A stretch of DNA of 64,000 nt from a virus. A model generated the notes under the pieces. That model had not been told where the DNA came from, did not search any database, and saw only the letters and a list, made by a program, of their open reading frames with translations. The position numbers and the translations under genes are program-made. The DNA lies in the IMG/VR virus record IMGVR_UViG_3300046517_000866, positions 11,593-75,592 of that record. One strand, given 5' to 3'. Position 1 is the first letter of the stretch, and every line of letters starts with the position of its first letter. This document shows positions 8,470 to 63,200 of this stretch, piece by piece.

Positions 8470-8572
8470 GGCCTCTATTAGGCCCTCGCTGAGTGGCATA
8501 TCATTGGAGCGCTACACATACAGCGCCCCACCCCTGAAAACCTCTGGAGCGCCAAAATTCCCGGAGAAAAAA
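8470..8572. repeat. Dispersed ~100-bp dyad element, copy 1
   Basis: Core GGAGCGCTA-cacata-CAGCGCCCC at 8506-8529; flanks match the reverse complement of copy 2 (CTCGCTGAGTG; CTCTG.AGCGCCAAA). Confidence 0.85.
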
Positions 8573-8576
8573 CGAC

Positions 8577-11240
8577 ATGGGCTTCGCAGGTCTTCCGCCG
8601 ACAGAAAAACTCCCGATCAGCTCCCTACAAGGCATCTCCTTTGCGACATTGCACAAGATGCAATGCCAGATTTGTCCACTCAATCACGCCAAGCACCCAA
8701 AGCATCCACATCAAAAGCCTTGGGGTGCCACAAATCCAATAGTCTACATGTTGGGCGACGCACCAAGTGAGGTCGAGGATCGAAATGGCAAACCGTTCCA
8801 ATCCAGCGCTGGCAAACTCATACGTGAGCGCATTCCAGACAAGTACGCGTCTGCCGTTAGATGGAACAACGCCACTCGAACAATGCCAGCAAAGGCCATA
8901 ACTAAAGACCCTAATACTTGGCCGTCACAAATCGTCATCGAGTGTTGTCGTCCATCAATAGTCCAAGATATTGAAGCCTCTAAACCCGAAGTCATTTTCG
9001 GATTTGGTCCTGTAGTATTACAATGGGCAATCCAGCAAACGGGTTTGGCAAAATGGAACGGGCGGCGTGTGCCGATCAAGGTGGGAAATCACAAGTGCTG
9101 GTTTTATCCCATGCATCACCCAAGGGACGTGATTGCAGGGCGTCGTGTGTTCAAGGATGGCAACAAGTACAAACCGCGAGGATTGAATGACTACGGCTCC
9201 GAACAAGAGTTCTGTTTCGCCCTTGATCTGAAAAATGCTTTCAATGAACTAGACAGTTTGCCGGAACCTATTATCCACACGTCAGAATTTGCCAACAAGA
9301 ACTGTGAGTATCGAACAGGCTCGAACGGATGGAAAGACGTTGAGTGGGTTCAGAACAGATTGCGAGAATTGTATGATGAACCAATCGTTGGCATGGACTA
9401 CGAAACGAACAGATTGCGCCCATATGAGGACGGCGCCAAACTTCTGACCGTTGCCCTGTCATCAGCCCGAGGAACGTTTGCATTTCCCTTCGAACACAAA
9501 CAAGCAAAGTGGACCGAGGAACAGCTTGATAGAGTTTACACGTACTTCATTAATTTCTTGCACAAAGCAAACTGCCGAAAGGTAGTTCACCAATTGGCGT
9601 TTGAAATGGAGTGGTCGGCTGTCTTTTTTGGCAAGTCAATACTACGCTGCAAGCCATGGGGCGACTCCGTTACTCAAGCATTTGTGCTTGACGAGCGTAT
9701 GAAGATGGGGAAGCCTGATGCATTATCGCTGGAGTTCCTAACTGTCCAATACTTCGGCCTCAATCTAAAACACCTGTCCGATATTGATCGCTTAGACCTG
9801 GACAACGAGCCATTGGATCAAGTCCTGACCTACAATAATCTGGACGCCAAATACCATCGGTTACTGTACATTGAACAAGCAGCACGGATCAAAAAGGAAG
9901 ACCTGCTGACTGTATATCACAACCAACTACATCGTGTTCCCACAATGGTTCTCACGCAAATGAAGGGATTGCCTGTTGATCAGGTCCGCGTTATGGAGTT
10001 CAAAAAGTTCTATGAAAGCATAATCAGTAGAGTTGAAGAAGAGATTGCTGACCAACCCATAATTGCACAGTACAAAAGCCTGAAAGGGGCAAAGTTTCGT
10101 CCCTCGGCAAATGAAGATGTACTTTTCCTTGTCCGCAAGGTCATCAAACAAGGTATCAAGAACGTTGACGAAAAGTCACTAGCAGACGTTCATCATCCAG
10201 TAATTCCACTACTGATCGAGCACCGCAAGGCATCCAAAAACCTTTCCACCTATGTCAAACCTGTGATGCCCGGAAGTCCCTGCTTGTTTCCAGATGGAAA
10301 ATTGCACCCGATCATTTCCACAACACGCACTAGGACCTCGCGAACAGCATCGGACAGTCCCAATGTCCAGAACTGGCCGAAGCGAAAGAACAAAAAGATA
10401 CGCTCACAAATCAGGGGCAAACTCAATCAGAAAATTGTGTCCTTTGACTATGGACAAATCCAGGCACGCAATGTGGCAATGGAGTCACTAGATAAGGCAT
10501 TAGTCAAAGCATTCTGGGATCGGTATGATATTCACGCGGATTGGGTCGAGCGGATCGTCAAAAAATACCCAGCATGGGTGCCGGGCGGCGTCAAGTTCCT
10601 AAAGGACCCCGATGTTTTCAAGGCACTCCGCAACAAGGCCAAAAATGAGTTCGTGTTTCCTTCATTCTTTGGTGCACAAGCGAAGTCACTGTCCAGATAT
10701 TTAGGCGTTCCTGTAGAAATAACTGAAAGACTGCATGATGACTTTTGGGAAATGTTTCCCGAGATCAAGGACTGGCAAAAAGGACTGATCAAAACGTACT
10801 TCAAAACGGGATACGTCACAGGGTTATCAGGATTTCGCCGTCGCGCGCCAATTTCCCCAAATGAATTGATCAATGCACCAATTCAAGCGGACGAGTGCTT
10901 GATCGTATGCGATGCAATGACACGATTGTCAAAGTACGATGAACCACGTTTCCAAGCATCGATGGAAATTCACGATGACTTGACCTTCATTTGGGAGCAA
11001 CAGGAAATCGAGAAAAACGCAGAAGTTGCGATCCGAGAAATGCTGACATGCCCCTATGACTGGATCAATGTTCCAATCGTAGTTGAAATGTCGATTGGTG
11101 ACGATTGGTCCAACGGTAAAGAAGTTGCACATTTTGCTTCGGACTTATGGGAAGGCAAAGACCCGTTCAAGGGAACGTGGGCAGATGGTACAGGTTGGGC
11201 AAACGCTAAGGGGATGGAAAAGGCACGGGGTAGCAAATGA
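8577..11240 (+). CDS. Family A DNA polymerase with N-terminal uracil-DNA-glycosylase (family 4)-like domain and 3'-5' exonuclease
   Basis: CQICPL...GDAPSEVED..GKPF...AG and HP (UDG4-like); MDYET and YNNLDA (exonuclease); PNVQNWP, DYGQIQAR, NAPIQ and IHDDL (PolA). Confidence 0.9.
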   Translation: MGFAGLPPTEKLPISSLQGISFATLHKMQCQICPLNHAKHPKHPHQKPWGATNPIVYMLGDAPSEVEDRNGKPFQSSAGKLIRERIPDKYASAVRWNNATRTMPAKAITKDPNTWPSQIVIECCRPSIVQDIEASKPEVIFGFGPVVLQWAIQQTGLAKWNGRRVPIKVGNHKCWFYPMHHPRDVIAGRRVFKDGNKYKPRGLNDYGSEQEFCFALDLKNAFNELDSLPEPIIHTSEFANKNCEYRTGSNGWKDVEWVQNRLRELYDEPIVGMDYETNRLRPYEDGAKLLTVALSSARGTFAFPFEHKQAKWTEEQLDRVYTYFINFLHKANCRKVVHQLAFEMEWSAVFFGKSILRCKPWGDSVTQAFVLDERMKMGKPDALSLEFLTVQYFGLNLKHLSDIDRLDLDNEPLDQVLTYNNLDAKYHRLLYIEQAARIKKEDLLTVYHNQLHRVPTMVLTQMKGLPVDQVRVMEFKKFYESIISRVEEEIADQPIIAQYKSLKGAKFRPSANEDVLFLVRKVIKQGIKNVDEKSLADVHHPVIPLLIEHRKASKNLSTYVKPVMPGSPCLFPDGKLHPIISTTRTRTSRTASDSPNVQNWPKRKNKKIRSQIRGKLNQKIVSFDYGQIQARNVAMESLDKALVKAFWDRYDIHADWVERIVKKYPAWVPGGVKFLKDPDVFKALRNKAKNEFVFPSFFGAQAKSLSRYLGVPVEITERLHDDFWEMFPEIKDWQKGLIKTYFKTGYVTGLSGFRRRAPISPNELINAPIQADECLIVCDAMTRLSKYDEPRFQASMEIHDDLTFIWEQQEIEKNAEVAIREMLTCPYDWINVPIVVEMSIGDDWSNGKEVAHFASDLWEGKDPFKGTWADGTGWANAKGMEKARGSK

Positions 11241-11393
11241 ACTCTGTAATACCATGCAAACGTGGGTCCAAATGTAGTTGGCCGTCTTGCAGTCTACACT
11301 GTGACGGTCGACCAGGATTGGACCCTCCGTTAGAGCACATCATTGATTGGATGGTTTATCGGGTATGTCATCTAAGACAAAAGGAAGTCAGAA

Positions 11394-12320: not shown

Positions 12321-12353
12321 TCCACAGTATGTATCAATAGGAGGACCCTTGAT

Positions 12354-14623: not shown

Positions 14624-14668
14624 TCGAAAACCTTCGGCCTAAATAAAACATGGGCTCGGCCGAAGGTC

Positions 14669-19921: not shown

Positions 19922-21786
19922 AACTTGATTTCAACTACGTCTGGCTAAAGCAGTTCAAATCATTTTCAAAAGCATGCACCTTCCGCTTGGATTTGAAACC
20001 AGGTGTGCACTTCATTCGTGGCATCAACTCGGACAAGCCCCGCCTAGGATCGAACGGCGCTGGCAAGTCTACGATCTTTGACGCGCTATGTTGGGTGCTC
20101 TATGGCAAGACAAGCCGAGGGCTCAAGAACCCGGACGTTGCTGCTCGCAAGGCAAACGGAAAAACAACTACCGTAATCCTGGGTATCACGATCGATGATA
20201 TCGAGTACACGATTACGAGATCAATCCGCCCAAATAAGTTACTGATTGACAACAAGGAAGTTGGACAAGAACAAATTATTGAACTGATAGGAATGGACTT
20301 CCCGGTATTCACGCACACAATCCTGCTTGGTTCATTATGCCCGCTGTTCTTTGATTTGACGGCGCGCGACAAGATGCAACTGTTTGTTGACGTACTTGAT
20401 CTGGAACGCTGGGATAACCGATCGGAAATTGCATCCAAGAAATTGCAGGAACGCGTCAGCATTCAAGTAGGAGTGCAAAGTGACCTCAGCGCCCTGGAAA
20501 CTACCTATGCAACAGTCACAGAACTGAAAAAGAGTTTACAGGAACAATCGGACGAATGGAACGCCCAACAAGAAACACGCTTGCAGGGTTACGTCAACAA
20601 ACGCAAGCAGCGTTACAAAGAACTGAAAGTACAGGAAAAGCTTTATGAGGATGCACTCCTGGGTCTCGATGGCGCTGGTGTGGAGGTTAAACAACTGGAA
20701 ATCGATTTGGCTAGACAGACAGATGATCTGGCCCGAGCAAAAAACGCCAGAAACAAAGTTGAGGCAGAGCTCAAAATACTACACAGCCAGTATGAACAAT
20801 TGGCTGACCAATACCATCAACTTGGAGAAGGGGCGCATTGCCCGACGTGTGGACAATCAACCAAGGGCACCGCCCTGGAAAAGCAAAAGAAGCAGATGCG
20901 TCATGACCTCGCCAAGGCCCGAGCAATCTTGGATGCTGGCATACCATCGGAAATCGACTTAGCAGTTACTACAGCAAAGAAGATAGTTCACACGACACAG
21001 GAGCATTTAGCGAACTGGCGTGCCAAGGAAGACGATGCACAATCGACAGTACGTCGTGTCGAGCCATTCGTTAATAGTTACAAGACGGAAATCGGCACAC
21101 TCACAAGACAAATCGAGGAACGCGAACACGAAAACAATCCTTATACGCTGCAAATTCGTAAACTGATCAAGCAGACCCAAAAGTTGGAAGGGGATCGCAA
21201 AGCGTTGACGGAACGCCTTGGCAAAATGAACTCACTAGTTGAGCGGACCAAATTCTGGGTCAAGGGGTTCAAAGATGTACGCTTGTTCGTCATTGAAGAG
21301 TTGCTGCAAGAATTGGAGTTGACTACAAACGCTGTCCTGGATGATGTTGGTTTGGTTGGGTGGTCGATCAAATATGCAATCGAGCGTGAGACAAAAGCAG
21401 GAACGATCCAACGAGGGTTGACAGTATCCATCCTCGAACCGGGCAACGAAACACCAGTTAGGTGGGAGGCTTGGTCTGGGGGTGAGGGGCAGCGATTGCG
21501 TGTCATCGGTGCATTGGCGTTGTCCGAAACACTACTCAATCACGCGGGGGTTGAAACGTCCATCGAAATATTGGACGAACCGACACAACATCTAAGCGAT
21601 ATTGGTGTCAATGACCTCAACGATTATTTGGCCGAACGGGCAAGGCAGTTGAAGCGATGCATTTTCTATATCGATCATGCATCGGTCGAGAGTTCAAAAT
21701 TTGCCTCTGTTTTGACGATCGAAAAAGGTGAAGTGGGGTCATTCCTGCGGAAATCCGGCAAAGCCGAAGAAGAGTGCCCGTTTTGA
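19918..21786 (+). CDS. SbcC/Rad50-like ATPase
   Basis: Walker A NGAGKS, zinc hook CPTCG, coiled coils, signature SGGE, Walker B ILDEP and H-loop. Confidence 0.92.
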   Translation: MKLDFNYVWLKQFKSFSKACTFRLDLKPGVHFIRGINSDKPRLGSNGAGKSTIFDALCWVLYGKTSRGLKNPDVAARKANGKTTTVILGITIDDIEYTITRSIRPNKLLIDNKEVGQEQIIELIGMDFPVFTHTILLGSLCPLFFDLTARDKMQLFVDVLDLERWDNRSEIASKKLQERVSIQVGVQSDLSALETTYATVTELKKSLQEQSDEWNAQQETRLQGYVNKRKQRYKELKVQEKLYEDALLGLDGAGVEVKQLEIDLARQTDDLARAKNARNKVEAELKILHSQYEQLADQYHQLGEGAHCPTCGQSTKGTALEKQKKQMRHDLAKARAILDAGIPSEIDLAVTTAKKIVHTTQEHLANWRAKEDDAQSTVRRVEPFVNSYKTEIGTLTRQIEEREHENNPYTLQIRKLIKQTQKLEGDRKALTERLGKMNSLVERTKFWVKGFKDVRLFVIEELLQELELTTNAVLDDVGLVGWSIKYAIERETKAGTIQRGLTVSILEPGNETPVRWEAWSGGEGQRLRVIGALALSETLLNHAGVETSIEILDEPTQHLSDIGVNDLNDYLAERARQLKRCIFYIDHASVESSKFASVLTIEKGEVGSFLRKSGKAEEECPF

Positions 21787-21787
21787 T

Positions 21788-21895
21788 GGCAAAATTCCTG
21801 CGATATTTGGCGCTACAGAGCCTTTATGGGTGGGGGCGCCACCCCCCTAGCGCTCCCGATCCAATGGGCACTCAGCGAGAGCCTATCGAAGGCCA
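21788..21895. repeat. Dispersed ~100-bp dyad element, copy 2
   Basis: CAAAATTCCTGCGATA flank; core GGGGCGCCA-cccccc-TAGCGCTCC at 21833-21856. Confidence 0.88.
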
Positions 21896-22055
21896 CGGAT
21901 AAAGGAAAAGTTTCCCATGAAGCAGGCGGCAACCTATGTCTGTCAGAACTGCGGCGAAACCTACAAGAACATTCCGGCAGTTCCGACACCGAAGTACTGT
22001 TCTAAAGTATGTTTTTCACAAGCACGCATAAAGGCGCCAAGCAAGGAAAGATCAA

Positions 22056-25876: not shown

Positions 25877-26415
25877 GAGGCATCAGGAAAGCCAAACTCT
25901 TGCATTGTCCATCCTGAAAAACTGCGCACGATCGGCGCTATCTGCTTTTTATGGACTACCCAGCCATTCTGGAAACCGATGCCTTGGGTCCACCGCGTCT
26001 TTCTAATGACGTGCAGCTGCTCAGGTGACATAGGCACGCCGCACAGTAGGCATGCCTGGAAGTCCAAGCGCTGTGCAACTTGAACCATGAACAATCCGAC
26101 AGACCCTCGCCAACATTCGTTGACGTGTGTGACGTACTTTGCAATCCCCTGATTTCGCTTTTCAGAAAACCTGTGGGACCAGACTTGATTGGGTGCTGAG
26201 TAACCCTTTTCAAGCCTCTTTTCAATCCATGGATTGACGGAGTCTGTGTGGATCATGCATGCGTGGTCAATGTCATCTGGAAAGATCGTGCAAATGTCAT
26301 TTGCGACAAATGTACTCCATCCAACGCCAACCTGCATGCACAGTTGCTTTGCTTGTTCGTACTCCTTAAATACGAACTGAGCACCCCCGATCAAGATCGC
26401 CGCTTGGCGCATCAT
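25852..26415 (-). CDS. Putative glycosyltransferase-like protein (Maf/DUF115/GT29-like), paralog 2
   Basis: ILIGGA, VAND, GSVGLF, LLCGVPM and RSFSGWT. Confidence 0.5.
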
Positions 26416-27947
26416 TTCAAGCCATACAAAGTGAACACGCCACCAGCTTCAAAGGCATTCGTAGTCGTGAAGGTCAACCTTGAAATTGCACTGACAGGAG
26501 TGTTATGACTATTATCATCCCAGAAGCTAAAAGCATGACCGGCAAATTTTCCGTTGCCTGATGTGAAGTTGAAAAAGAATGCCATTATAGATTTGACCAC
26601 GTTAGTTGTGTAGTTAGCGAATGTAATCTCACCATACCCGGCAAAGGCACTGCTTTGTGTAAGCAGACCAACCCATGCACCCGCTGACGTCGAAGCTAAG
26701 ACGTCTGTAGCTCCAGACCCGTCAAGTTGATAAATGCGATCAGCAGCAGAATAGTCCCCAGAAGTAGCGTCATTGTTTACTTTACAACTCAAGTTCGCAT
26801 AACTACCTCCCGCAGCATTATCTCTCGCGCTGTAGACAACCTTTAGACTCGTGTAACTGCCAGAAATGCTAGTGAAGTCAACAGATGATTGTCCGGCAGT
26901 TGTTGTGATTTGTGCAAGTTGCACAAAATCGCTTGCACTGCTAGGTCCTGTCGCACCTGTCGCGCCTGTTGCACCTGCGGGTCCTGTAGCCCCTGTTGCA
27001 CCCGTCGCGCCGCTTGCGCCACCGGGAGTTCCTGATGCACCCGTTGGCCCCGTGGCGCCTGTAGCTCCAACGGGACCTGTTGCACCTGTTGCCCCTCCGG
27101 GTGATCCTGATGCACCTGTTGCGCCTGTAGCCCCTGTCGGACCTGTAGCCCCTGTAACACCAATTGAACCTGTAGCCCCTGTCGGACCCGTCGCGCCTGT
27201 GGCGCCGATTGGGCCTGTAGCCCCCGTTGGCCCCGTCGCGCCTGTTGCACCCACACCTCCCACAACAGTACTCGCAGCGACGTTTTCCCAAACTCCATAC
27301 GAAGCATTATAAAGCAGCATATCGTCATTTTGTGGACTGGAGATTGACGTATCAATCAGTTGTGCAAGGGCTGTGACACGGGACACCCATTCTGTGTCGC
27401 CGTCAACGTCACTATGCTTGACTAGTGCGTCACCTGTGGCGCCACCTGCCGGAACTCCATACACTGTATGCCAGATGAAGTCATAGTCCGTGTTGGACGC
27501 TTTTGCTAGAAGTTGCCCTGTCGTTCCTCCGATCGGCAAACCAGCGGGGATTGTGAATAGCAACGCATAGACACTATGCCCATTGCCATCACTTGCACCT
27601 GGATCAAACAGTGTCGCGGACGTGTGATCGAAACTGACAATATATGCCGAGTTACCCTCGCCAAAAACGTCACCAACAAAGTATTGTGTATCTGGTGCCC
27701 AAATGCCACGACCATGTATCCCCAACAAGGGCATCTTGACAAAAAACGATGACGCATCAGTCATCGCAATTGTCATTATGTCACCGTCGGTCGTGATATC
27801 CATGATCGAAACAGGTTCGATCGGATGGTTCTCGATCGCAGCGATACGTTGTAAAACTTCCCAGAAGTTCTGGTCAACTTCAAAGTCGTCAAGTAACCTA
27901 TTTAGGCCACTGCCCCAACGTGAAAAATCAGTAGTGCACCAGTACAT
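26412..27947 (-). CDS. Tail fibre with Gly-X-Thr collagen-like segment
   Basis: [16 protein letters not shown] fibre repeats, about 35 GXY triplets (GAT/GPT), globular C-terminus; last gene of the tail block. Confidence 0.8.
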
Positions 27948-36148: not shown

Positions 36149-36204
36149 TTGCCTTGCGCCTTTCCAGTGTGTTGCAGGAATGCAGCACCCCCGACAGCGG
36201 GACC

Positions 36205-36300
36205 GCTGAAATTCCTTCGATAGGGCGTGCTGGGGTGGTTTTTATGAGGGGAGCGCTACACATGCAGCGCCCCCATCGAAGACAAGCCCACAGGGGGCCG
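36205..36300. repeat. Dispersed ~100-bp dyad element, copy 3
   Basis: AAATTCCTTCGATAG flank; core GGAGCGCTA-cacatg-CAGCGCCCC at 36250-36273. Confidence 0.85.
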
Positions 36301-36344
36301 TAGGAAGGATTGTAAGGAACGATCCGAACAATCCTCGATTGTTT

Positions 36345-36893
36345 TTACGGCGACTCGGACAGGGTCGCCGTGACGGACCCGAAAAAGCCTGTTGTCGGAT
36401 CAGCAAGAACGTCGGCTTCCAGTTCCATGTCACCCCACTTCGAGTTGCCGATCAAGGAAACGGCCTTTGATGGTGTGATACGGCATTTCGGGAAGATCGC
36501 AGTCCAACGCGGACCAACGTCATTTTGACCGACGAACTTGATTGCCGCCTCGATGATCGACGCCGAGAAGATATCGACCGTGATCGATCCAGGCGGGGAG
36601 TCAATGATCGGAATGCCCATAAACGCCATACCAACGTTGCGTCCGGTGAACTCTTCGAGTACCATCGTCAACGTTGCGTCCTTTTGGACAATCGCGATCG
36701 CATCACGAACTTTCACGCCAGTCCGTGAACTGTAGTGGTCAAGCCTTGTCGGCTTGCACAGGAACTCGAACGTCGGTGCGTTACCGCAGTCAACATAATC
36801 GAGGTCGCCAGTCAGCTTGACCGAAACGATGCCCGTGCCAATGTAGTAGTTGTTGGTGTTGGGCGAATTGACTGAACCGAGAATGATAGGCAT
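36345..36893 (-). CDS. Major tail tube protein
   Basis: NYYIGTG...DCGNAP.FE.....LDHYSSRTG pattern; lies between the terminator and chaperone genes. Confidence 0.75.
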   Translation of the reverse strand: MPIILGSVNSPNTNNYYIGTGIVSVKLTGDLDYVDCGNAPTFEFLCKPTRLDHYSSRTGVKVRDAIAIVQKDATLTMVLEEFTGRNVGMAFMGIPIIDSPPGSITVDIFSASIIEAAIKFVGQNDVGPRWTAIFPKCRITPSKAVSLIGNSKWGDMELEADVLADPTTGFFGSVTATLSESP

Positions 36894-47753: not shown

Positions 47754-48382
47754 GGAAACCTTTCGAATGCTATCCAGGTCCCCTCGACCCGGAATATAGT
47801 GCGTCCTTGTGACACGAGCTTGTCAATCACAGGCTTCACCTGGACAACCGGCATGTCATGATAATCATGCCAGATAATCGTACCACCAGGTTTGATTGCT
47901 GCAAGAGCCAACTCTGTGTCGTGAGTAACGCCACGTGCACTATGGTCACCATCGATAAAGATTACATCCGCAGGGGGCAACTCGCCCACCTTGATATCCC
48001 CGGAACCATTTGCGCTGACCAGCAGTTCAAACCGCCGATCATTTACGCAGTGCCTACCGGGCGCTCCGGGTACTTCCCTTCGTTGGACGGGAAGTAACTT
48101 CGAACTGTAACCCGGAAGTACGTCGATACCTATATAACGTTGAAACTCAATGTGATCAAGGACCATTCGTGCAGTCCGCCCGGAGTTTACACCGATCTCG
48201 ATCATCGTGTGTTTCGTCTGTGCAGTATTCGCAACTGCAAGGATCATCTCCATTTCGCCTTGGTTCAAGTAGGGCAGTCGAGACAATCCAGGCGTCCAAC
48301 GAAAGTCTTTGGGCATGTAGCACTTCAACGCCTTTTGTTGAACGACCATCGGCGTTGTCTGTGGCCTCTTCACCGGGATCAT
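47750..48382 (-). CDS. Class I SAM-dependent methyltransferase (Methyltransf_24-like)
   Basis: IEIGVNSG, YIGID, DVIFIDGDH and KPGG.I.WHDY; ATGA-coupled to the glycosyltransferase. Confidence 0.85.
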   Translation of the reverse strand: MIPVKRPQTTPMVVQQKALKCYMPKDFRWTPGLSRLPYLNQGEMEMILAVANTAQTKHTMIEIGVNSGRTARMVLDHIEFQRYIGIDVLPGYSSKLLPVQRREVPGAPGRHCVNDRRFELLVSANGSGDIKVGELPPADVIFIDGDHSARGVTHDTELALAAIKPGGTIIWHDYHDMPVVQVKPVIDKLVSQGRTIFRVEGTWIAFERFP

Positions 48383-49293
48383 CTCAGGAACTCCATCAGC
48401 CTCTTGGTTGCATTGACCATGTCGATTTTCTTGTTGCAACTGTGCATGGCAGACCAACAGTTGCAAGGATTGATCGGGTCGATACCCAGGAATGGTGCCC
48501 ATACAGTTGATGATCTATGTGCATATGAACTCTCCATTCCACCAAAAACAATTACAACTGGTGTCCCTGTCGCTTGGGCCATTGCAAGGGCGAAGCCTGG
48601 CGCTGCCATTACAAGATTGGCAATCGAAAACAATCCAATCAATGTCTCAGTTGGTAAAGGATGTTCATAAAACTGGTGATCTGCCCATAGTTCTGGACCA
48701 ATCAACCACTCACGATCCTTTTCCAAGTCAGCAACAGAAACGACATGGAAATACTTGCGAATGGAGTTGTAAAGAGCAAAATAGTGGTTTGTATCTGGAT
48801 TGCGTTGCGTAATCGGGTTCCATTCTGTTCGAACAGTCAATGGTCGGACAACAAGAATTGGCTTTTCAGGATACCCGATCAACTTTCGTGCAGCCTCCTG
48901 CCATGCTGCCGGAACCGTCATTCTGTAGTCATAGTCTGTTTCAATGTGAGTGACTGCAGCCATCGCTTGCGGCAGTCCACCTAACTGAACGGCGATTGGA
49001 AAGGGATAATGAACTCTAACTTCTTGCAATGGGGTTGTCCCCATCGGATTTCTAACAAAGTACTTTAAGTTCTTGTTGACGCTTTTTGCCTGAGTCCGCA
49101 GTCGCGTATTGGACGCAACGAACTTCAACCGAGGCATGTCGTGATAAATTGCGGGCCACGATGTCTCCAACCACACGTCTTCGGCCTTTTCCAGGATAGG
49201 CTTGACAACTGCACGTTGGTAGAAACTGTCACCCATCCCCTGCATTCCATGGATGAAAACACGCCTTTGGATCGTGACATGCATGATTGCCAT
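48379..49293 (-). CDS. GT-B glycosyltransferase (GT9 heptosyltransferase-like)
   Basis: GMGD near the N-terminus, ANLV....GFA.AMAQA.GTP.VIVFG and C-terminal PCNC.....C.K.I. Confidence 0.75.
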   Translation of the reverse strand: MAIMHVTIQRRVFIHGMQGMGDSFYQRAVVKPILEKAEDVWLETSWPAIYHDMPRLKFVASNTRLRTQAKSVNKNLKYFVRNPMGTTPLQEVRVHYPFPIAVQLGGLPQAMAAVTHIETDYDYRMTVPAAWQEAARKLIGYPEKPILVVRPLTVRTEWNPITQRNPDTNHYFALYNSIRKYFHVVSVADLEKDREWLIGPELWADHQFYEHPLPTETLIGLFSIANLVMAAPGFALAMAQATGTPVVIVFGGMESSYAHRSSTVWAPFLGIDPINPCNCWSAMHSCNKKIDMVNATKRLMEFLR

Positions 49294-49311
49294 CCGTGTT
49301 CGGATCAGGGG

Positions 49312-49415
49312 TGCCAAAATTCCTGCGATAGAGCGGGCTACAGAGGTTTTTGGGAGGGGAGCGCTACCTCCCTAGCGCCCCCATGCGAAAGGGCGCTGTA
49401 GCCCGCTCTAATGGA
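49312..49415. repeat. Dispersed ~100-bp dyad element, copy 4
   Basis: CAAAATTCCTGCGATA flank; core GGAGCGCTA-cctccc-TAGCGCCCC at 49358-49381; perfect 15-bp outer inverted repeat 49329-49343 / 49396-49410. Confidence 0.9.
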
Positions 49416-49445
49416 GGGTCCGTTTGTTGTATTTTTGCAACACAC

Positions 49446-49883
49446 TCAGTACCCATTGAACAATTGATGCTTGAAGGACTCCAGCAAGAACAGCCCTGTC
49501 GCAAGGTCCAGATCATCGTCATGAATGAAGTGTGCATAACCGTCGTCATTCTCAATCAACACAATAGTATGCTTTGCCTTGTGCTCCGCTGCAGCCTCTA
49601 GAACAGACTTTACTGCTCGCACCCGTTCGGGCAACTTGACTACAACATTGTCGGAAGACGCGCCAGGAGGTATGAACACACCACCCGCAGCATATTTGGT
49701 TTTGGATACAGCATCATTATGACCAACTGCTGCAACCAACTGTGTATTGATCTCGTAAATCTGCTTACTCAACCATTCGTTAACTCGACAATCAATGTCG
49801 CCTGATTGCGCGTTTCGATTAAACACACGAGTTAGATAAGTCAGCAGGTCATAACGCTCGCGCAGTTGCTCATAGGTCATCAT
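49446..49883 (-). CDS. Hypothetical protein
   Basis: ORF with GGAG RBS. Confidence 0.5.
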   Translation of the reverse strand: MMTYEQLRERYDLLTYLTRVFNRNAQSGDIDCRVNEWLSKQIYEINTQLVAAVGHNDAVSKTKYAAGGVFIPPGASSDNVVVKLPERVRAVKSVLEAAAEHKAKHTIVLIENDDGYAHFIHDDDLDLATGLFLLESFKHQLFNGY

Positions 49884-51286: not shown

Positions 51287-51967
51287 CTACTTAATGAGGC
51301 GGGTCATGTGGACAACAACGTCAAGCCGACCACCGTCTGCCCCCCGACCTTCGGATCGAGTAACGGACTTGACCTTAAAATGATTGCCACGTTGAAACAA
51401 GAACTCGAACTCCCTTGGATTGTAAATTGCCTTTGGGTTTTTAACAGTTGATGGGATCACCTGCAACAGCACATCAGTTTCGCCAAGGTTCCCCTTCAAA
51501 GCATGCTCCGCCCATGCTTTAGCGGTGGTAGTTGCAACGTAACCCTGGTCTACAAAAACTCCACCAACTTTTAATTTATCCAGCAATGGATCATCTTCCG
51601 GCAAATGCAAGCCACGCCACAATTTAACTCCAGCAGGAACAGGTCTTCCATTTTCGGCAAGGTCTTTGTCGATCGCTGCAACCTTAGTATCCAAATCTCG
51701 TCGCTCGTCTGAATACCCACCGTTGCGGAGATAGTCATTGATCTTTTCAAATTCAGATGAAAACATGTACTGCTTAACTGCGCCGTCAGATGTAGCAAAG
51801 CGGCCCTTCTCATCATGATAGGGGTTCATACCCAACTTATGTGCACCAAGAGGATGACGCGTTGCAAAGAAACTACCCACCTTCTTCGGCTCGTCCTCGA
51901 CTATGTTCAAAGTTCCGTCTTCAAGCATGCCGGGCGGAGTATCGTCAACTGACTTGTTCATGATCAC
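51287..51967 (-). CDS. ADP-ribosyltransferase (VIP2/Alt-like)
   Basis: Y.....INDYLR, LWRG, GYVATT and EFEFLF.RG (R-S/T-ExE); N-terminal NPYHDEKGRF. Confidence 0.8.
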   Translation of the reverse strand: MIMNKSVDDTPPGMLEDGTLNIVEDEPKKVGSFFATRHPLGAHKLGMNPYHDEKGRFATSDGAVKQYMFSSEFEKINDYLRNGGYSDERRDLDTKVAAIDKDLAENGRPVPAGVKLWRGLHLPEDDPLLDKLKVGGVFVDQGYVATTTAKAWAEHALKGNLGETDVLLQVIPSTVKNPKAIYNPREFEFLFQRGNHFKVKSVTRSEGRGADGGRLDVVVHMTRLIK

Positions 51968-54900
51968 ACCTCTCGCAACACTGTATCATACTTGCCGTCT
52001 TTTGCTTTCTTGACGGAAATGACTTTGAACCGTGTACCACTCCTGAATAGAACCTCCCGTTCCTCAGGATTAAAAGCAATTCGTGCAATGTCCTTGCCAG
52101 TCTTGCCTTGGATCGTGAAATTGACAAGTGGCCGATGCCCCGGGTCAAAACTACTGTCCGATCGTTTTGTACTCAAGAACGCCCGTTCCTCAATCGTCTT
52201 TCCAACTGCATCCTGATAAACCTTCAACACGTCTGGATTGTTGGACCCGACACGATCGGTCGTTCCTTCATAATTAGGCATACGCCCCAGTGCTGAGTTC
52301 AGCTTTTCGACGTAATCCTGCTGCTCAGGAGTCAACGTCTGGCGCCGCAATGAATTGTTTATACCGAGGTAGGACGGACCCGTGTAGTCATGAATGATGT
52401 TGCGCTCACCAACAGACAATTTGACATAATTGGGTATATCTTCGTCCATGGTGAAGTGAGCACTGACACCTTTGATTGCTTTGTCGAACTCAGCATCGGT
52501 GAACTCAGAGGTTGCAAAGCGTCCCTTCTCGTCATGGTTCGGATTGAACCCCAACTTGCCTACGTCCATGTTATCCAGGATTGTCTGCAACCCTGTCAGT
52601 GCCTCGAGTACTTCATCACGTGCCACCTTCAACTTCTTCGCATTCCTTTCCGTACGCAGGGCAATCATCGCCGCAACTGCGCGAGACATGTAGTCCTTTG
52701 CAATACCAACAGACACTTGAGCATTTTCAGCAAAGTTGACAACTTGTGCATGGATTGCCTCTTCCACATCCGCAGGGAAATCAGCACCAGCAACATGGTA
52801 CAAACTGAAGGTGATGGCAGCTGCCAATAACTCCCGTTTGTTGTCATTCAGTTTGCTTCCTACAGTATGAACTATATCCTTCGCAGGACCAGCAAGAAAC
52901 GCCTTGATCGGCCCCGTTGCAAACTTGCCATGCTCGTCATGGAACGGATTAAACCCTACCTGATTGACAGTTGAGTCCTGTGGCATGTCAGGATTGAGAC
53001 CAGGCCCCAACTTGCGGATGGTCCAGAAGTCATCCGCAAGGTCCCGATCTTCTAAGTAATCGCCTGGTATCCAGAAGTGGCCTGCATCACCCCAATCCGT
53101 GCCATAGGAGTTGCGCACCTCATACATGAAGGACGGCACAGCAACAGCAGGTAACCCCGATCGCAGGAACACTGGATTACTATGGAAATCCGTGTCATAC
53201 CCAACGATGCAAACGGCATGACCACCAATCTGCTTTTCAGAGTTGAAGTCGGGCATCAACAATATGCCTGTTTTCGCAACCTGATCATCCTGGAATGACG
53301 AGTACACAGTGAACCCACCGACAAACGGAAACTTAGACGCAATGCATTTCATGAAGTCGTCGTGTGTCTTCAGTCGAGAGTATTTGGATATACGATAGTC
53401 TTGATCATCTGGCGGCAACGGTGGCTTGACCTTGAACTTCTTGATCTTGTACGGCCATTCGGCTTCCGTGCAAACTCCGATTTTGGCAAGTACCTTGATA
53501 CCGTCACGGATTTCCGCGCCACTATCGGACTTCACACTGTCTTCAATTTGTCGCTCCAGATAGTAGAGTTGTAATCGTGAAAGCATCGGCGTGTTTGGAC
53601 CATGCAAGTACATCACAGGTGGGATCAAGGCGTTTGCCGTGCATGAACCCAAATCCCCTTGATCAAAGATCGGACACAGCAATTTCCGTAGTGAAGCCTT
53701 TGCCGGCAACCCAATTGACTTGGGGTGCTCGAGTGCATAAAGCAAGTCCCGCTTGTCAGGTGTATCTGGCGACCAGCCGAAATTCTTTTTGATGACAAGG
53801 GACTCAACTGCCGCTCGCGCAACCATACGAGTATTCCTTTTCTTAGCAGGCTTGAATTGGGAGGTATCAATCTGCCTCAACTGATCGATCGTATACCTCA
53901 AACCCGTATGATCTATGAACTTCCCCACCTTCATCGTGCCATGTCGAAACATCGCCGCATGAACTGTACCAAGCAATCCGTCTTGCACATGTGGAGGTTG
54001 ACGCTTGAGCCATCCACTGTAGGTCAGCTTTGCAGGCACCTCACCATTCATGTACTCGACAACATCATCGGGCAAGTCACCTGGATCAAACCCAAGGTCC
54101 TTGATTGCCTTGATCAAAGCAACAAACGCCGATCGACACCCAATGTGCGCGGGAGGACGAGGGCCTTCACCGATACCAAAAATTGACCCATCCAGTCCTT
54201 CGCAAATGTCTGTTGTTCTGTCGTCCAGAACAGACACCCACATACCACTACCAATCAGGTCTGAGTTTGCTTCATAGAACAACTCTCGCGCATTGTTTGC
54301 CGCATGGTTCGCCGCAGTCCTTGTAACCGACGCCGCCGATCTTCGCGATACCGCGAGAACCCCGTCTTGATAATTTGCTGCTTTCGTTCCACGTATGGCC
54401 TTGATAATTGAGTTGACTGAGTCCTTAGCCGTGCTTCCAGCTCTAATCGCAGCGCGAATGCGATTGAACCGACCAACACGCATACCCTCAATCCACTCAG
54501 AAAGTAGAGCACCCTGAAATGGAACATCTGTAACCCCCTCTTCCAACGCAGCGCTGGCTGCGCGTCCGAAGTCCCATTCGATTGGCAGTAATCGTGTCAG
54601 CGCTGTTTGCTGATACTCTTGCTCATACTTCGCCAACTTGACCAACCTGTCAGTCAACGCCTTTTCGATATCGCGGAATGTCTTGTCATTGACGCCAGCA
54701 ACAGCACGCAGGACTGTATCGATGCGACCAAGAGTACCATCCTGCTTTGCTCGATCGGCAATCGCTGCAAGTAGCAATGAGTCGTTGCTGTCAAGAATGA
54801 CTGTTAACTCGTCAATCATCGTGCGCTGAAGACGAGTCAAACCAATCTGGTGTGATACTAGTTTGTCAAGAAGGTCCTCGTTGATGTTGTCACCGGGTGC

Positions 54901-55062
54901 TGCCCCATACTTCATGGCAAGCAAGTGTGCCGGTGGCAGGACTTCAATCTCAGAAGGTCCCCAAACAAATCGAGACTGCCTAGACAAACCAAGACGTGCT
55001 AAAGGATGAGTCTTCGGCAAGACTTCAAAGTCAGAAGGACCCCAAACAAATCGTGAGTTCAT
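51964..55062 (-). CDS. MuF (SPP1 gp7-like) head protein fused to a papain-like C1A peptidase and an ADP-ribosyltransferase
   Basis: MuF: RTA..H, W.S.LD.RT..IC..LDG, PPAH..CRS. Peptidase: DQGDLGSCTANA, GGHAV, RNSYG..WGD.G.FW. ART: YT...Y..IN..LR, FLSTK, EREVLF..G. Confidence 0.88.
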   Translation of the reverse strand: MNSRFVWGPSDFEVLPKTHPLARLGLSRQSRFVWGPSEIEVLPPAHLLAMKYGAAPGDNINEDLLDKLVSHQIGLTRLQRTMIDELTVILDSNDSLLLAAIADRAKQDGTLGRIDTVLRAVAGVNDKTFRDIEKALTDRLVKLAKYEQEYQQTALTRLLPIEWDFGRAASAALEEGVTDVPFQGALLSEWIEGMRVGRFNRIRAAIRAGSTAKDSVNSIIKAIRGTKAANYQDGVLAVSRRSAASVTRTAANHAANNARELFYEANSDLIGSGMWVSVLDDRTTDICEGLDGSIFGIGEGPRPPAHIGCRSAFVALIKAIKDLGFDPGDLPDDVVEYMNGEVPAKLTYSGWLKRQPPHVQDGLLGTVHAAMFRHGTMKVGKFIDHTGLRYTIDQLRQIDTSQFKPAKKRNTRMVARAAVESLVIKKNFGWSPDTPDKRDLLYALEHPKSIGLPAKASLRKLLCPIFDQGDLGSCTANALIPPVMYLHGPNTPMLSRLQLYYLERQIEDSVKSDSGAEIRDGIKVLAKIGVCTEAEWPYKIKKFKVKPPLPPDDQDYRISKYSRLKTHDDFMKCIASKFPFVGGFTVYSSFQDDQVAKTGILLMPDFNSEKQIGGHAVCIVGYDTDFHSNPVFLRSGLPAVAVPSFMYEVRNSYGTDWGDAGHFWIPGDYLEDRDLADDFWTIRKLGPGLNPDMPQDSTVNQVGFNPFHDEHGKFATGPIKAFLAGPAKDIVHTVGSKLNDNKRELLAAAITFSLYHVAGADFPADVEEAIHAQVVNFAENAQVSVGIAKDYMSRAVAAMIALRTERNAKKLKVARDEVLEALTGLQTILDNMDVGKLGFNPNHDEKGRFATSEFTDAEFDKAIKGVSAHFTMDEDIPNYVKLSVGERNIIHDYTGPSYLGINNSLRRQTLTPEQQDYVEKLNSALGRMPNYEGTTDRVGSNNPDVLKVYQDAVGKTIEERAFLSTKRSDSSFDPGHRPLVNFTIQGKTGKDIARIAFNPEEREVLFRSGTRFKVISVKKAKDGKYDTVLREV

Positions 55063-55730
55063 TTTATCACCGTCAAGTAAATAACACGTCCTTGACGCTT
55101 AATTACGCGATATGTTGTGCCTCGCCGCAACAAGACCTCTTGCTCTCCACCTTGGAGACTCTGCCCTTTTAACAAAGCCTTTGCCTTTTTAGTCAGATTT
55201 TTTGAACTAACTTCTGGACTGATAACCTTCGTCCCCTTTGGCAAAAGGATATGAGCCAAGTATCCGCTGGTTTCATCACCTTCATCGTCTTCCATCCTAG
55301 TGAAGATTTCAGCCGCCTCCTTGTCAATAGAAGTTGAGTTGAAACCACGATCCGTAAACGTGTCACCCTCTTTCAACTCGCCAATTGCGTCCTTGTCCAT
55401 GCCACGGTAAACAACTGTATCTTCAGTTAGGCTTTGCGCACCATAGTCAAACGCCCGATCCAACCCCCGAATAGTTCTTTGCTGGGAACCACTAGTCCAA
55501 TCATTCTCGTCACCACTACGCAAAGCATTGTTGATTGCCAAATACTTCCCACTAACCCAATCCGAACATGCAACTTGCGAGGTGGGTAACAAAGCGTCAG
55601 GCAGATTGGACCAGTTTGGTTCTAACTTTTTAACATCATCGCCAGTAAGTCTCTTAGCGTTCTCACCAACCCATTCACCGGCCCCAGGCTGGCCAGCAGG
55701 AACACGTGGTTGCTTAGGATCAAATGACAT
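55059..55730 (-). CDS. ADP-ribosyltransferase (VIP2/Alt-like)
   Basis: Y.AINNALR, VYRG, D.GFNSTS and EQEVLL.RG; N-terminal FDP.QPRVPAG.PG.GEW. Confidence 0.82.
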   Translation of the reverse strand: MSFDPKQPRVPAGQPGAGEWVGENAKRLTGDDVKKLEPNWSNLPDALLPTSQVACSDWVSGKYLAINNALRSGDENDWTSGSQQRTIRGLDRAFDYGAQSLTEDTVVYRGMDKDAIGELKEGDTFTDRGFNSTSIDKEAAEIFTRMEDDEGDETSGYLAHILLPKGTKVISPEVSSKNLTKKAKALLKGQSLQGGEQEVLLRRGTTYRVIKRQGRVIYLTVIK

Positions 55731-56099
55731 TTTCAGACCTTCACCATCATGTACGCCACAACTGCAAAGATCGCAGCCATAGGCGCACTGATGTACCAAA
55801 CGTCTCGCCGTTCCGAGAACAGATCAAAAATAGTGGTAACCGCACACATTGCAAATAATGCAGTGCATGCGGCACCAACCCATATCAAGACTTGATGACC
55901 CATCTAGGCATCATCGACAAGCGCGTTGCGGATGACGACCTTCCGCAACGATCCATTCTTTGCAGGCTTGACGACTCGCGTCATTCCAGCAGGTGCTCGC
56001 TGAACCCGAGGCTTCATTGCCTTCGGATGATACTTCGCCGCAACCTTCGGCTTTCGTGCGTAACCCATCTTTGCCATTTATACTTTCCTTTCAGGTTCA

Positions 56100-57424: not shown

Positions 57425-57437
57425 CTAGTAACCCTCT

Positions 57438-57941: not shown

Positions 57942-57959
57942 GAGCCTTTACCTTTCCGT

Positions 57960-60514
<2,555 letters not shown>

Positions 60515-60518
<4 letters not shown>

Positions 60519-62044: not shown

Positions 62045-62057
62045 GGAAGCCTTTTCC

Positions 62058-62378: not shown

Positions 62379-62590
62379 TGCAAACTCCTCCTAACGTCTC
62401 GACACACAACGTCAATCTCATGACACTGGACGTCAATACGGGCCAAAGCGCTGTCAATAGTAAGAATGGCCTTTACTTGTGTCTGATGAAACTCAACAGC
62501 AAGCCTGTATATCTGGACGACGACTATTGCAATTGCGCAAAGCGCGACAAGCGATAGTCCCATGAACACAAGGGTCAAAAAGTCCATCAT
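62375..62590 (-). CDS. Small membrane protein
   Basis: N-terminal TM helix; coupled ORF. Confidence 0.5.
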   Translation of the reverse strand: MMDFLTLVFMGLSLVALCAIAIVVVQIYRLAVEFHQTQVKAILTIDSALARIDVQCHEIDVVCRDVRRSLQ

Positions 62591-62955
62591 GGCTGATGAC
62601 TCCTTGCTTGTGCTGACTTGATCGTCAGAATGTGTTGAGTATTCGCGTCAATACGCGCTAACGTAGTATCAATTGTCTTGAAACGAACTTCGTCCTGCCC
62701 CGTATGAACTGCCAACTCTTGCTTTGTCTGAAAAATGTGGTTCGTCAACTCTTCCTTGACTTTGACTTGCTGTGCAATTAGTTCTTCTTTGAGTTTCTGC
62801 TGCCCCCGTGATAACTCTTCCTTCACTGCCATTTGCTCTAATCGAATTGAAAGAACTACATTTCGTACTTTCATACCGAACCAGGCAACGACGCCCGTGG
62901 CAACTAATGAAAGAACCTCTAGTCCTATTTTTACGGTGTCCAGGTCAGCGCCCAT
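62587..62955 (-). CDS. Membrane-anchored coiled-coil protein
   Basis: One TM helix followed by repeated Q.K.KEEL heptads. Confidence 0.5.
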   Translation of the reverse strand: MGADLDTVKIGLEVLSLVATGVVAWFGMKVRNVVLSIRLEQMAVKEELSRGQQKLKEELIAQQVKVKEELTNHIFQTKQELAVHTGQDEVRFKTIDTTLARIDANTQHILTIKSAQARSHQP

Positions 62956-63092
62956 TGCGAGTTCCCCTCATGTTGACAACAGCGATCAGGCTGGAACATG
63001 CAGGTGACCTCGTCACCCAAAGACAAATCCTACCATAACAGTAGGAACGTGTCTTGTCGACCTATAAGCTACCGTTAACTTAGGGGTTTCGC

Positions 63093-63200
63093 CAGGCCCT
63101 CATTAGAGCCCCAAGGGGTGGGGTGGAACGGGAGCGCTATGTGTGTAGCGCCCCCATCCACAAAAGCTATGGAGCGCCAAATATCGCAGGATTTTTGCCT
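63093..63200. repeat. Dispersed ~100-bp dyad element, copy 5
   Basis: Core GGAGCGCTA-tgtgtg-TAGCGCCCC at 63131-63154; right flank AGCGCCAAATATCGCAGGA is the exact reverse complement of the copy 2 left flank. Confidence 0.88.

What the first reader, a model, noticed from the sequence alone, without database searches (positions are those of the whole stretch)
8470..63200. Five copies of a ~100-bp dyad element spaced almost evenly, every ~13.7 kb
Seen: a core GG[A/G]GCGCTA-N6-[T/C]AGCGC[C/T]CC starts at 8506, 21833, 36250, 49358 and 63131. The intervals are 13,327, 14,417, 13,108 and 13,773 bp. Each copy carries a one-sided flank related to AAAATTCCTGCGATA (degenerate in copy 1) about 25-30 bp from the core. 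All copies are intergenic, and some split tightly coupled modules (clamp|polymerase; tail tube|chaperone). Flank orientation (right, left, left, left, right) does not follow transcription direction (+, +, -, -, -), which argues against ordinary promoters or terminators. Inference: placement looks selected for distance rather than gene context, like a genome-wide ruler. Candidate roles are nucleoid-organising or looping sites (parS/matS-like), periodic primosome or clamp loading sites, programmed nick sites (T5-like), or packaging/ejection checkpoints. I know of no described system matching this.
Basis: partly seen in the sequence, partly recalled or inferred. Interest (0 to 1): 0.92.

Follow-up and report, generated by a model that had tools for sequence, protein, structure and literature searches.

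The report
Evenly spaced fold-back repeats in phage
An uncultured tailed phage carries five copies of a new ~130-base fold-back repeat between genes at oddly regular 13-14 kb steps; the repeat is real, but the 'genome ruler' idea failed its one testable prediction, and the copies most likely act as hairpin punctuation in long phage transcripts.

Summary
There are exactly five copies of GGRGCGCY-N8-RGCGCYCC at the stated coordinates, against 0.01 expected by chance. Each is the centre of a ~130-bp nested imperfect palindrome, and all five lie between genes that run the same way.

A profile search of the whole 75.6-kb virus record finds no sixth copy. The copy predicted about 5 kb left of the window is absent, and the contig ends 869 bp after copy 5. 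The four intervals are very even (CV 0.042; P about 1e-4 under random placement), but the ruler is not genome-wide.

The element matches no Rfam family, no other IMG/VR contig and no sampled bacterial genome. Seven whole genomes that share the replication genes lack it and have no comparable array.

It lacks a U tract, so it is not an intrinsic terminator, and it carries no sigma-70 promoter match.

Most relatives have clamp and polymerase genes abutting. Two other lineages hold unrelated hairpins at that same junction. The phage's early operon carries hammerhead ribozymes.

My best reading (0.35) is transcript-level hairpin punctuation. The main rival (0.28) is a docking site for a dimeric DNA-binding protein.

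This scan's unchecked AI notes describe similar even palindrome arrays in other phages.

The parts
8448..8574 (-). Copy 1 of the fold-back element, core hairpin/dyad at 8506-8529. It lies between the sliding clamp gene (7352-8446, +) and the DNA polymerase gene (8577-11240, +). The outer arm next to the polymerase start is degenerate and overlaps its ribosome-binding region. A third GGAGCGCC half-site lies at 8546.
   Evidence: nhmmer E 5e-30
21785..21916 (+). Copy 2, core at 21833-21856. It is the only copy reading GGGG..CTCC on the + strand, and its closing pair is lost, leaving a 7-bp stem. It begins right after the SbcC-like gene stop (21786) and ends at the start of a 58-aa Cys-rich ORF (21917). 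Gene order shared with relatives stops here.
   Evidence: (E 7e-32)
36203..36330 (+). Copy 3, core at 36250-36273. It lies between the major tail protein gene (36345-36893, -) and the pre-tape-measure chaperone gene (35633-36148, -). It folds as a long two-tier hairpin on both strands (z -5.95 and -4.03).
   Evidence: (E 1.5e-27)
49309..49441 (+). Copy 4, core at 49358-49381. It is the best-preserved palindrome: arms 49322-49366 and 49373-49417, 45 nt, 76% complementary, including a perfect 15-bp outer stem. It lies between a 145-aa ORF (49446-49883, -) and a 312-aa ORF (48379-49317, -).
   Evidence: E 1.8e-30; strongest local fold in the genome, z -5.3
63074..63203 (-). Copy 5, core at 63131-63154, with a third GGAGCGCC half-site at 63171. 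It sits in the 293-bp gap between a 46-aa membrane ORF (63249-63389, -) and a 122-aa ORF (62587-62955, -). This is upstream of the portal and head genes and 869 bp from the contig end.
   Evidence: (E 4.9e-32)

Best explanation
The five copies are a phage-specific family of ~130-bp nested imperfect palindromes. Their selected part is the central GC-rich hairpin: an 8-10-bp stem with one conserved wobble or mismatch and an 8-nt loop of free sequence.

I think they act mainly on the transcript. Each lies inside a long polycistronic middle or late operon. Once transcribed, it folds into a stable hairpin with no U tract, next to a conserved A/U-rich run. Such a structure can block 3'-exonucleases or mark an endonuclease site (RNase E or RNase III type). 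The mRNA on its two sides would then have different lifetimes. That would uncouple expression of a high-demand gene (clamp, major tail protein) from a low-demand neighbour (polymerase, tail chaperones).

Shown: the family, its anatomy, its position, the absence of terminator and promoter consensus, and the comparative pattern at the clamp|polymerase junction.

Inferred: transcription through the element, folding in vivo, and any effect on RNA decay.

On this reading the near-equal spacing is a by-product of how the operons are cut into blocks, not a measured distance.
For: (1) All five copies lie between co-directional genes and none lies at the divergent or convergent junctions.

(2) Sequence identity is concentrated in the stem. 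Mean pairwise identity is 0.90 for the arms when copies are oriented by flank. Apart from the strand flips of the wobble position, only one arm base differs among the five copies when they are oriented by stem. The loop scores 0.42 and the flanks 0.59 and 0.40.

(3) In 4 of 5 copies the sense RNA has G.U rather than A.C at the single imperfect stem position.

(4) There is no run of T after the stem on either strand. The phage does use canonical hairpin+T terminators after its tRNA (46069-46042) and after its major capsid gene. So these are hairpins of another kind.

(5) In 10 of 16 relatives examined, the clamp and polymerase genes abut (0-10 bp). Two other lineages (L098; L100, with L101 holding the identical hairpin) carry an unrelated, single-copy 111-114-bp hairpin at exactly this junction. 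That suggests a hairpin as such is what gets recruited there.

(6) Another unique U-less 62-bp hairpin follows the polymerase gene.

(7) The early operon of the same phage is punctuated by type II hammerhead ribozymes: two above the Rfam gathering score and three weaker. Intercistronic RNA processing is therefore already a habit of this genome.

(8) Copies 3 and 4 form irregular helices of about 35 bp or more (z about -6), the size class of RNase III substrates.
Against: - There is no expression or RNA-end data.
- The stem shows no compensatory changes. Its sequence, not merely its pairing, is kept, while the loop varies. That is the opposite of most protein-recognised RNA hairpins and typical of dyad DNA sites.
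- Copy 1 has the A.C mismatch in the sense RNA.
- In copies 3 and 4 the antisense strand folds better than the sense strand (-64.6 and -73.0 against -56.2 and -61.1 kcal/mol).
- The outer arms are placed either way round relative to transcription (3 against 2).
- A transcript-level role gives no reason for the even spacing, in particular across the convergent junction between copies 2 and 3.
Confidence: 0.35

Rival explanations
1. Docking sites on double-stranded DNA for a two-fold symmetric (dimeric) DNA-binding protein of the phage or host. This could be an operator, silencer or organiser array of the kind seen as dispersed dyad repeats in other phages. The protein would read the two 8-bp arms and ignore the 8-bp spacer.
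For: - The arms are essentially invariant, the spacer length is fixed and the spacer sequence is free. This is the same conservation logic as the 17-bp Cluster O mycobacteriophage repeat (PMC4351075).
- There are no compensatory stem changes.
- Function would not depend on orientation, which matches the mixed orientations.
- Copies 1 and 5 carry a third GGAGCGCC half-site 40 bp from the first.
- GGGGCGCT occurs nowhere else in the 75.6-kb record.
- A DNA-level role is the only kind that could make spacing across the convergent junction meaningful.
Against: - The half-site centres are 16 bp apart, about 1.5 helical turns, which is awkward for a simple dimer.
- A short operator does not need palindromy extending to 45-nt arms.
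- Every copy keeps one half-site with A and the other with G. That asymmetry has a clear meaning only in a folded hairpin.
- There are only five sites, none at the divergent control region.
- No candidate reader protein was identified. Pfam and PHROG scans found no recombinase, ParB or HUH protein.
- Relatives have no counterpart array.
Confidence: 0.28
2. A selfish or relic palindromic repeat (REP, ERIC or MITE-like) that spread within this phage lineage and is decaying. It would have no function of its own, and its spacing would be a coincidence.
For: - It is a nested imperfect palindrome of ERIC-like size, is dispersed, and occurs in both orientations.
- Different pairs of copies share different segments, which suggests recombination among the copies.
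- It has been inserted where relatives have abutting genes.
- It is absent from all relatives.
Against: - The core is held nearly invariant while the flanks have drifted to 40-59% identity, which indicates purifying selection on the core.
- There are no target-site duplications.
- No transposase or RAYT-like gene was found.
- No matching family was found in 120 bacterial loci that hit the core pattern. All of those matches stop at the core.
- Random insertion gives this evenness about once in 10,000 trials.
Confidence: 0.12
3. The distance itself is selected. The palindromes would be cis-acting DNA sites laid out about every 13.7 kb over the middle and late part of the chromosome. Candidate roles are programmed nick or hairpin-extrusion sites, loop anchors, or entry sites for the phage's own sliding clamp. 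The last role would resemble the clamp of phage T4, which is loaded at nicks and tracks to late promoters (textbook knowledge, not tested here).
For: - CV of the four intervals is 0.042, P about 1e-4.
- The distance from copy 3 to the end of the late operon (about 12.9 kb) is similar to the intervals.
- The copies split tightly coupled gene pairs instead of sitting at natural module borders.
- The phage encodes a beta-type clamp, a clamp loader, SbcCD and a small ECF-like sigma factor.
- Unchecked AI notes of this scan report even palindrome arrays in other phages. These are leads, not support.
Against: - The predicted sixth copy is absent and the left 20.1 kb is empty.
- There are only four intervals, and they were picked out after the fact.
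- Known phage nick motifs are short, asymmetric and all on one strand (PMC3517423). These sites are dyads with mixed polarity.
- Seven whole genomes of relatives show no such array.
- A scan for strong local folds shows no other hairpins filling the gaps in the ruler.
Confidence: 0.1
4. Composite promoter plus stem-loop cassettes, like the PeSL cassettes of T4-type phages, read by the host RNA polymerase or by the phage's ECF-like sigma factor. They would start the middle and late transcription units.
For: - The phage encodes a two-domain sigma-like protein (window 951-1511). Pfam Sigma70_r2 gives E 0.004 and phrog_351 gives 8e-4. The top structural matches are nearly all ECF sigma factors, but all are weak (best E 0.016).
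- In copies 2 and 5, whose well-kept arm points toward the downstream genes, that arm reads TGCGATATT, which resembles an extended -10 element. In copies 3 and 4, where the arm points the other way, the last T is lost.
- Copy 5 lies upstream of the head gene block.
Against: - There is no sigma-70 match inside any copy, and promoter-like sites in the window are not enriched over shuffles.
- The sigma-54-like GG-N10-GC in copies 2 and 5 is a low-information match; GGCA-N7-TGC occurs 24 times in the record.
- Three of the five copies face the wrong way for the conserved arm to act as a promoter.
- Relatives keep the sigma gene but not the motif.
- Copy 1 sits in mid-operon.
Confidence: 0.08

Closest known systems
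REP/BIME and ERIC (IRU) intergenic palindromic repeats of enterobacteria
   Same: Both are imperfect GC-rich palindromes inside transcribed intergenic regions, are dispersed, occur in either orientation and have no U tract. ERIC is about 127 bp, the same size class as this nested palindrome. Known effects of those repeats are on the stability of the flanking mRNA.
   Different: Those are chromosomal families with tens to hundreds of copies, and REP is tied to RAYT transposases. Here there are five copies in one phage, no host counterpart was found, there is no sequence similarity, and the spacing is strikingly even.
PeSL promoter/stem-loop cassettes of T4-type phages (PMC2839356, PMC4122927; found, titles and abstracts only)
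   Same: Both are repeated composite intergenic motifs with a stem-loop in a phage genome. Copy 2 lies at a break in gene order shared with relatives.
   Different: PeSLs carry a recognisable early promoter and cluster in hyperplastic regions. These copies have no sigma-70 match, lie 13-14 kb apart, and copy 1 sits inside a conserved gene pair.
17-bp dyad repeat of Cluster O mycobacteriophages (PMC4351075)
   Same: Both have invariant inverted arms, a spacer of fixed length and variable sequence, no fixed orientation relative to transcription, placement mostly at gene boundaries, and unknown function.
   Different: Cluster O has 34 or more copies of a 17-bp site, some inside genes, and the site is conserved across the cluster. 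Here there are five copies of a 24-bp core inside a 130-bp palindrome, all intergenic and absent from relatives.
Localised nick sites of T5-, phiKMV- and tf-type phages (PMC3517423)
   Same: Both are a handful of conserved sites scattered along a lytic phage genome with no agreed function.
   Different: Nick motifs are short, asymmetric, all on one strand and irregularly spaced. These sites are dyads with mixed polarity. Nicks cannot be seen in an assembly.
RNase III processing hairpins between genes of phage T7 (own knowledge)
   Same: Both are long irregular intercistronic hairpins that cut polycistronic phage mRNA into units. Copies 3 and 4 are of comparable helix length.
   Different: T7 sites are oriented with transcription and are not a sequence family. 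Copies 1, 2 and 5 here form only the 8-13-bp core helix.

Membership tests
Intrinsic (Rho-independent) terminator | GC-rich hairpin followed directly by a run of U in the transcript | tested here: not met
   A run of T precedes the stem on one strand and a run of A follows it on the other. The terminator scan flags none of the five cores. It does find true terminators at 46069-46042 and after the capsid gene.
Sigma-70 promoter / PeSL cassette | -35 and -10 hexamers at 16-18 bp spacing inside the repeat | tested here: not met
   The scans place no promoter-like site inside any copy, and counts in the window are not above shuffles. The only resemblance is an extended -10-like TGCGATATT in copies 2 and 5.
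Any Rfam RNA family (ribozymes, riboswitches, sRNAs) | Covariance-model match | tested here: not met
   No hit on the elements at the gathering threshold or at E <= 10 with permissive filters. The same library finds hammerheads elsewhere in the genome.
REP/ERIC-type repeat | Imperfect palindrome, intergenic within operons, dispersed, either orientation | tested here: met
REP/ERIC-type repeat | Many copies in a bacterial chromosome, or a shared host/phage family | tested here: not met
   120 loci in bacterial genomes hit the core pattern. They are scattered across phyla and none extends beyond the core in the profile search.
MITE | Target-site duplications and a cognate transposase | tested here: not met
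   No direct repeats at the element borders. No transposase, HUH or recombinase was found among the proteins scanned. Presence/absence polymorphism is not testable because no close relatives were found.
Dispersed dyad operator array (Cluster O type) | Invariant inverted arms with a fixed-length variable spacer | tested here: met
Dispersed dyad operator array (Cluster O type) | Array conserved, or re-spelled, in related phages | tested here: not met
   G001, G002, G005, G006, G007, G009 and G010 have no dispersed palindrome family of three or more copies.
Phage nick-site motif (T5, phiKMV, tf) | All sites on one strand; a nick present in virion DNA | not testable with these tools
   Core polarity is 4:1 on the + strand, so the sites are not all on one strand. 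Nicks need virion DNA.
   No copy anywhere in the 20.1 kb left of copy 1. The right side is beyond the contig end.

The most novel reading that the evidence does not exclude
The even 13-14 kb spacing is itself under selection. The five palindromes would be DNA-level landmarks laid across the middle and late half of the chromosome. They might be hairpin-extruding or nicked entry sites where the phage's own sliding clamp or another tracking or looping protein is loaded, serving late transcription by the phage's ECF-like sigma factor or chromosome organisation. This would be one instance of a wider, undescribed habit of large phages to keep regularly spaced palindromes.
Probability: 0.1. Interest if true: 0.8.

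Novelty: new variant of a known kind. Interest (0 to 1): 0.4.

Why it matters
Dispersed palindromic repeats are known in phage genomes, but their job is almost never known.

This family is small enough to dissect: five copies, an invariant stem, a free loop and a conserved wobble. It sits at junctions where the expected outcome is clear, namely the clamp-to-polymerase ratio and the tail-tube-to-chaperone ratio.

If it works on RNA, then together with the hammerheads of the early operon it shows a phage that punctuates all its long transcripts with structured elements. If it works on DNA and the spacing is real, it would be a new kind of chromosome-scale landmark.

Either way, one experiment separates the readings: compensatory stem mutants in a two-reporter construct, plus RNA-end mapping.

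Tried and rejected
- **Read-level evidence.** I therefore had no near-identical contigs, no RNA or DNA reads, and read laying went unused.
- **Rfam.** Nothing on the elements.
- **IMG/VR pattern scans.** The core pattern gave 67 single, unrelated hits. The flank+core pattern gave 8 hits. None resembles the element beyond the core.
- **JGI metagenome contigs.** A scan with the polymerase found no close relative.
- **Major tail protein in IMG/VR.** No relative found, so the junctions of copies 3-5 could not be compared.
- **Host MITE idea.** Rejected for lack of any extended match. The five hits in one Acidoferrales MAG are identical copies of an unrelated longer repeat.
- **Sigma-54 promoter in copies 2 and 5.** The motif is too common to mean anything.
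- **Restriction-site or HaeII-type (RGCGCY) avoidance or concentration.** There are 110 sites with no depletion.
- **Heterogeneous ruler.** A sliding-window fold scan shows many structured spots with no periodic pattern. Copies 1 and 5 are not among the top folds.
- **Degenerate hairpin search.** A search with relaxed arms and loops found no further family member.
- **k-mer search of intergenic regions for a shared late-promoter motif.** Only a start-codon-context word turned up.
- **Self-cleaving ribozyme reading.** Rejected, because the conserved unpaired blocks lie on opposite strands relative to transcription in different copies.

Full report
**What is there**

The core GGRGCGCY-N8-RGCGCYCC occurs five times in the window, at 8506, 21833, 36250, 49358 and 63131. 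Shuffled sequence gives 0.01 occurrences. The window is bases 11593-75592 of a 75,592-bp IMG/VR virus record that CheckV rates 73% complete.

A profile built from 134 bp around each copy was run with all filters off over the whole record. It finds the five copies (E 1.5e-27 to 4.9e-32) and nothing else below E = 1. A relaxed hairpin search finds no degenerate members. So the family has exactly five members in the DNA that is held.

**Anatomy**

Aligned, each copy has these parts in order: an outer arm (AAAATTCCTGCGATA-like), a GC-rich inner arm, a run of T, the core hairpin, about 22 nt, and a second outer arm (CTCTAATGGAGGG-like). The second outer arm is the diverged mirror image of the first.

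In copy 4 the whole element is a palindrome with 45-nt arms that are 76% complementary. This is the longest inverted repeat in the window and the strongest local fold in the genome. Copies 3 and 4 fold as two-tier hairpins on both strands (z -4.0 to -6.0). Copies 1, 2 and 5 keep only the core plus a few extra pairs.

Mean pairwise identity is 0.90 in the 16 arm positions, 0.42 in the loop, and 0.59 and 0.40 in the flanks. When the copies are oriented by stem, only one arm base differs among the five, apart from the strand flips of the wobble position.

Every copy keeps one imperfect stem position. It reads A.C on one strand and G.T on the other, and which strand carries which flips between copies. 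Flank orientation and loop orientation flip independently of it.

The loops fall into two classes, ACACAYRY and ACCYCCCT, which alternate along the genome.

The octamer GGGGCGCT occurs nowhere else in the record.

**Context**

Genes run on the + strand to about 23.2 kb and on the - strand from 23.4 kb to the end of the window.
- Copy 1 lies between the beta-type sliding clamp gene and the family A DNA polymerase gene.
- Copy 2 lies right after the SbcC-like gene.
- Copy 3 lies between the major tail protein gene and a pre-tape-measure chaperone gene.
- Copies 4 and 5 lie between small or unknown genes upstream of the tail and head blocks.

Relative to transcription, the outer arms face one way in copies 1, 3 and 4 and the other way in copies 2 and 5. 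The core gives a G.U wobble in the sense RNA in copies 2-5 and an A.C mismatch in copy 1.

**What it is not**

- It is not an intrinsic terminator. No run of U follows the stem on either strand, yet the phage has textbook terminators after its tRNA-Thr and after its capsid gene.
- It is not a sigma-70 promoter.
- It is not a known RNA family.
- It is not a concentration of an otherwise avoided restriction site.
- It is not part of a host repeat family, as far as a capped scan of 185,579 species' genomes shows.
- It is not present in any other IMG/VR contig.

**The spacing**

The intervals are 13327, 14417, 13108 and 13773 bp, giving CV 0.042. Random placement reaches this evenness in 8e-5 of trials (uniform), 7e-5 (random gene junctions) and 1.3e-4 (random gaps of 100 bp or more). 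Taken alone, that is striking.

Against it:
- The record extends 11.6 kb beyond the left edge of the window, and the copy predicted about 5 kb out is not there. The left 20.1 kb holds none.
- The right-hand prediction lies beyond the contig end.
- The pattern was chosen after the fact from four intervals.
- One interval spans the point where the two transcription directions converge.
- A genome-wide fold scan finds no other hairpins that would fill in a ruler.

**Relatives**

An alignment of clamp homologues brought in 41 IMG/VR loci with the same clamp-polymerase order. Only the replication module is shared with this phage. The tail and head genes have no close relative.

In 10 of the 16 relatives examined, the clamp and polymerase genes abut or are 0-10 bp apart. 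Two other lineages (L098; L100, with L101 holding the identical hairpin) carry an unrelated 111-114-bp hairpin at exactly this junction. It is single-copy in their genomes.

I self-compared seven whole genomes: G001, G002, G005, G006, G007, G009 and G010. None has a dispersed palindrome family of three or more copies or any regular array. So the element is lineage-specific, and the ruler is not a trait of the clade.

**Reading**

The same phage punctuates its early operon with type II hammerhead ribozymes. It carries other unique U-less hairpins between replication genes. Hairpins are recruited independently at the clamp|polymerase junction in other lineages.

Together with the strictly intra-operonic position, this makes transcript-level punctuation my first choice (0.35). 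By that I mean an exonuclease barrier or a processing site that sets different levels for the genes on its two sides.

The conservation pattern gives almost equal weight to a dimeric DNA-binding protein (0.28). That pattern is an invariant stem sequence, no compensatory changes, a free loop of fixed length, and a third half-site in two copies. It is the pattern of the Cluster O dyad repeat.

The other readings follow:
- A decaying selfish palindrome: 0.12.
- A distance-selected landmark, such as a nick or clamp-entry site: 0.10.
- A promoter cassette for the phage's ECF-like sigma factor: 0.08.

Known phage nick motifs are short, one-stranded and irregularly spaced, unlike these sites.

**Limits**

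The genome is incomplete. With five copies, no statistical test of covariation is possible.

Other agents of this scan have noted evenly spaced palindrome arrays in other phages, including a 130-bp fold-back about every 10 kb in a 110-kb phage. Those are unchecked notes on other DNA. I could not identify or test those genomes, and the 100-111-kb relatives I did test show no such array.

Noticed in passing
L091:678-3334 (-), i.e. 8.3-10.9 kb left of the window start: Type II hammerhead ribozymes lie in the intergenic gaps of the early minus-strand operon. Two score above the Rfam gathering score (40.4 and 39.3 bits) and three are weaker. They sit in a family of near-identical repeat cassettes (self-BLAST pairs at genome 67-3283).
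   Followed up: partly
window 951-1511 (+): A 186-aa protein with weak sigma-70 region 2 similarity. The predicted two-domain fold has a top PDB match list made up almost entirely of ECF sigma factors (sigma H, sigma E, AlgU), all weak (best E 0.016). It is conserved in relatives G002, G005, G006, G007, G009 and G011. A strong sigma-70-like promoter (TTGACA-18-TATGAT, 747-776) lies just upstream.
   Followed up: partly
window 1533-7365 (+): QueD-like, QueC-like, class III aminotransferase and OMP-decarboxylase/HUMPS-fold genes precede the clamp gene. This is consistent with a 7-deazaguanine DNA-modification cluster noted by another reader. Only the family hits were checked here.
   Followed up: partly
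L098:7087-7197 and L100:7087-7200 (relatives G002, G003/G004): An unrelated, single-copy 111-114-bp nested hairpin (outer stem ACGGGCG/CGCCCGT) lies between the clamp and polymerase genes. Most relatives have abutting genes there.
   Followed up: partly
window 11264-11325 (+): A unique 62-bp imperfect palindrome without a U tract lies between the polymerase and clamp-loader genes.
   Followed up: no
window 2640-2663: A perfect 8-bp GC stem with an 8-nt loop (CGGGCCCC/GGGGCCCG) lies between the Lys/Ala-rich 206-aa protein gene and queC. It has the same stem and loop geometry as the family core but is unrelated in sequence.
   Followed up: no
window 51287-55799 (-): A MuF-like head protein is fused to peptidase and ADP-ribosyltransferase regions (1032 aa). 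It is flanked by a 246-aa protein with an ADP-ribosyltransferase exoenzyme domain (Pfam E 6e-15).
   Followed up: no
window 57960-60518 (-) and 26412-27947 (-): Collagen-repeat fibre proteins. The first lies in a 2-kb stretch of 62% G+C, against 50% for the genome, directly downstream of the portal gene.
   Followed up: no
G001 40.6-47.4 kb and 74.5-76.2 kb; G011 26.6-36.2 kb: Relatives carry their own dense clusters of 30-90-bp direct repeats every 0.5-1.5 kb. These may be early-region cassettes like the hammerhead repeats of this phage.
   Followed up: no
window 63255-63275 (-): A dyad TGACA-N6-TGTCA lies about 60 bp upstream of copy 5, and a promoter-like site with a TG extension lies at 63060-63032 downstream of it. 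The real start of the head operon may be here.
   Followed up: no
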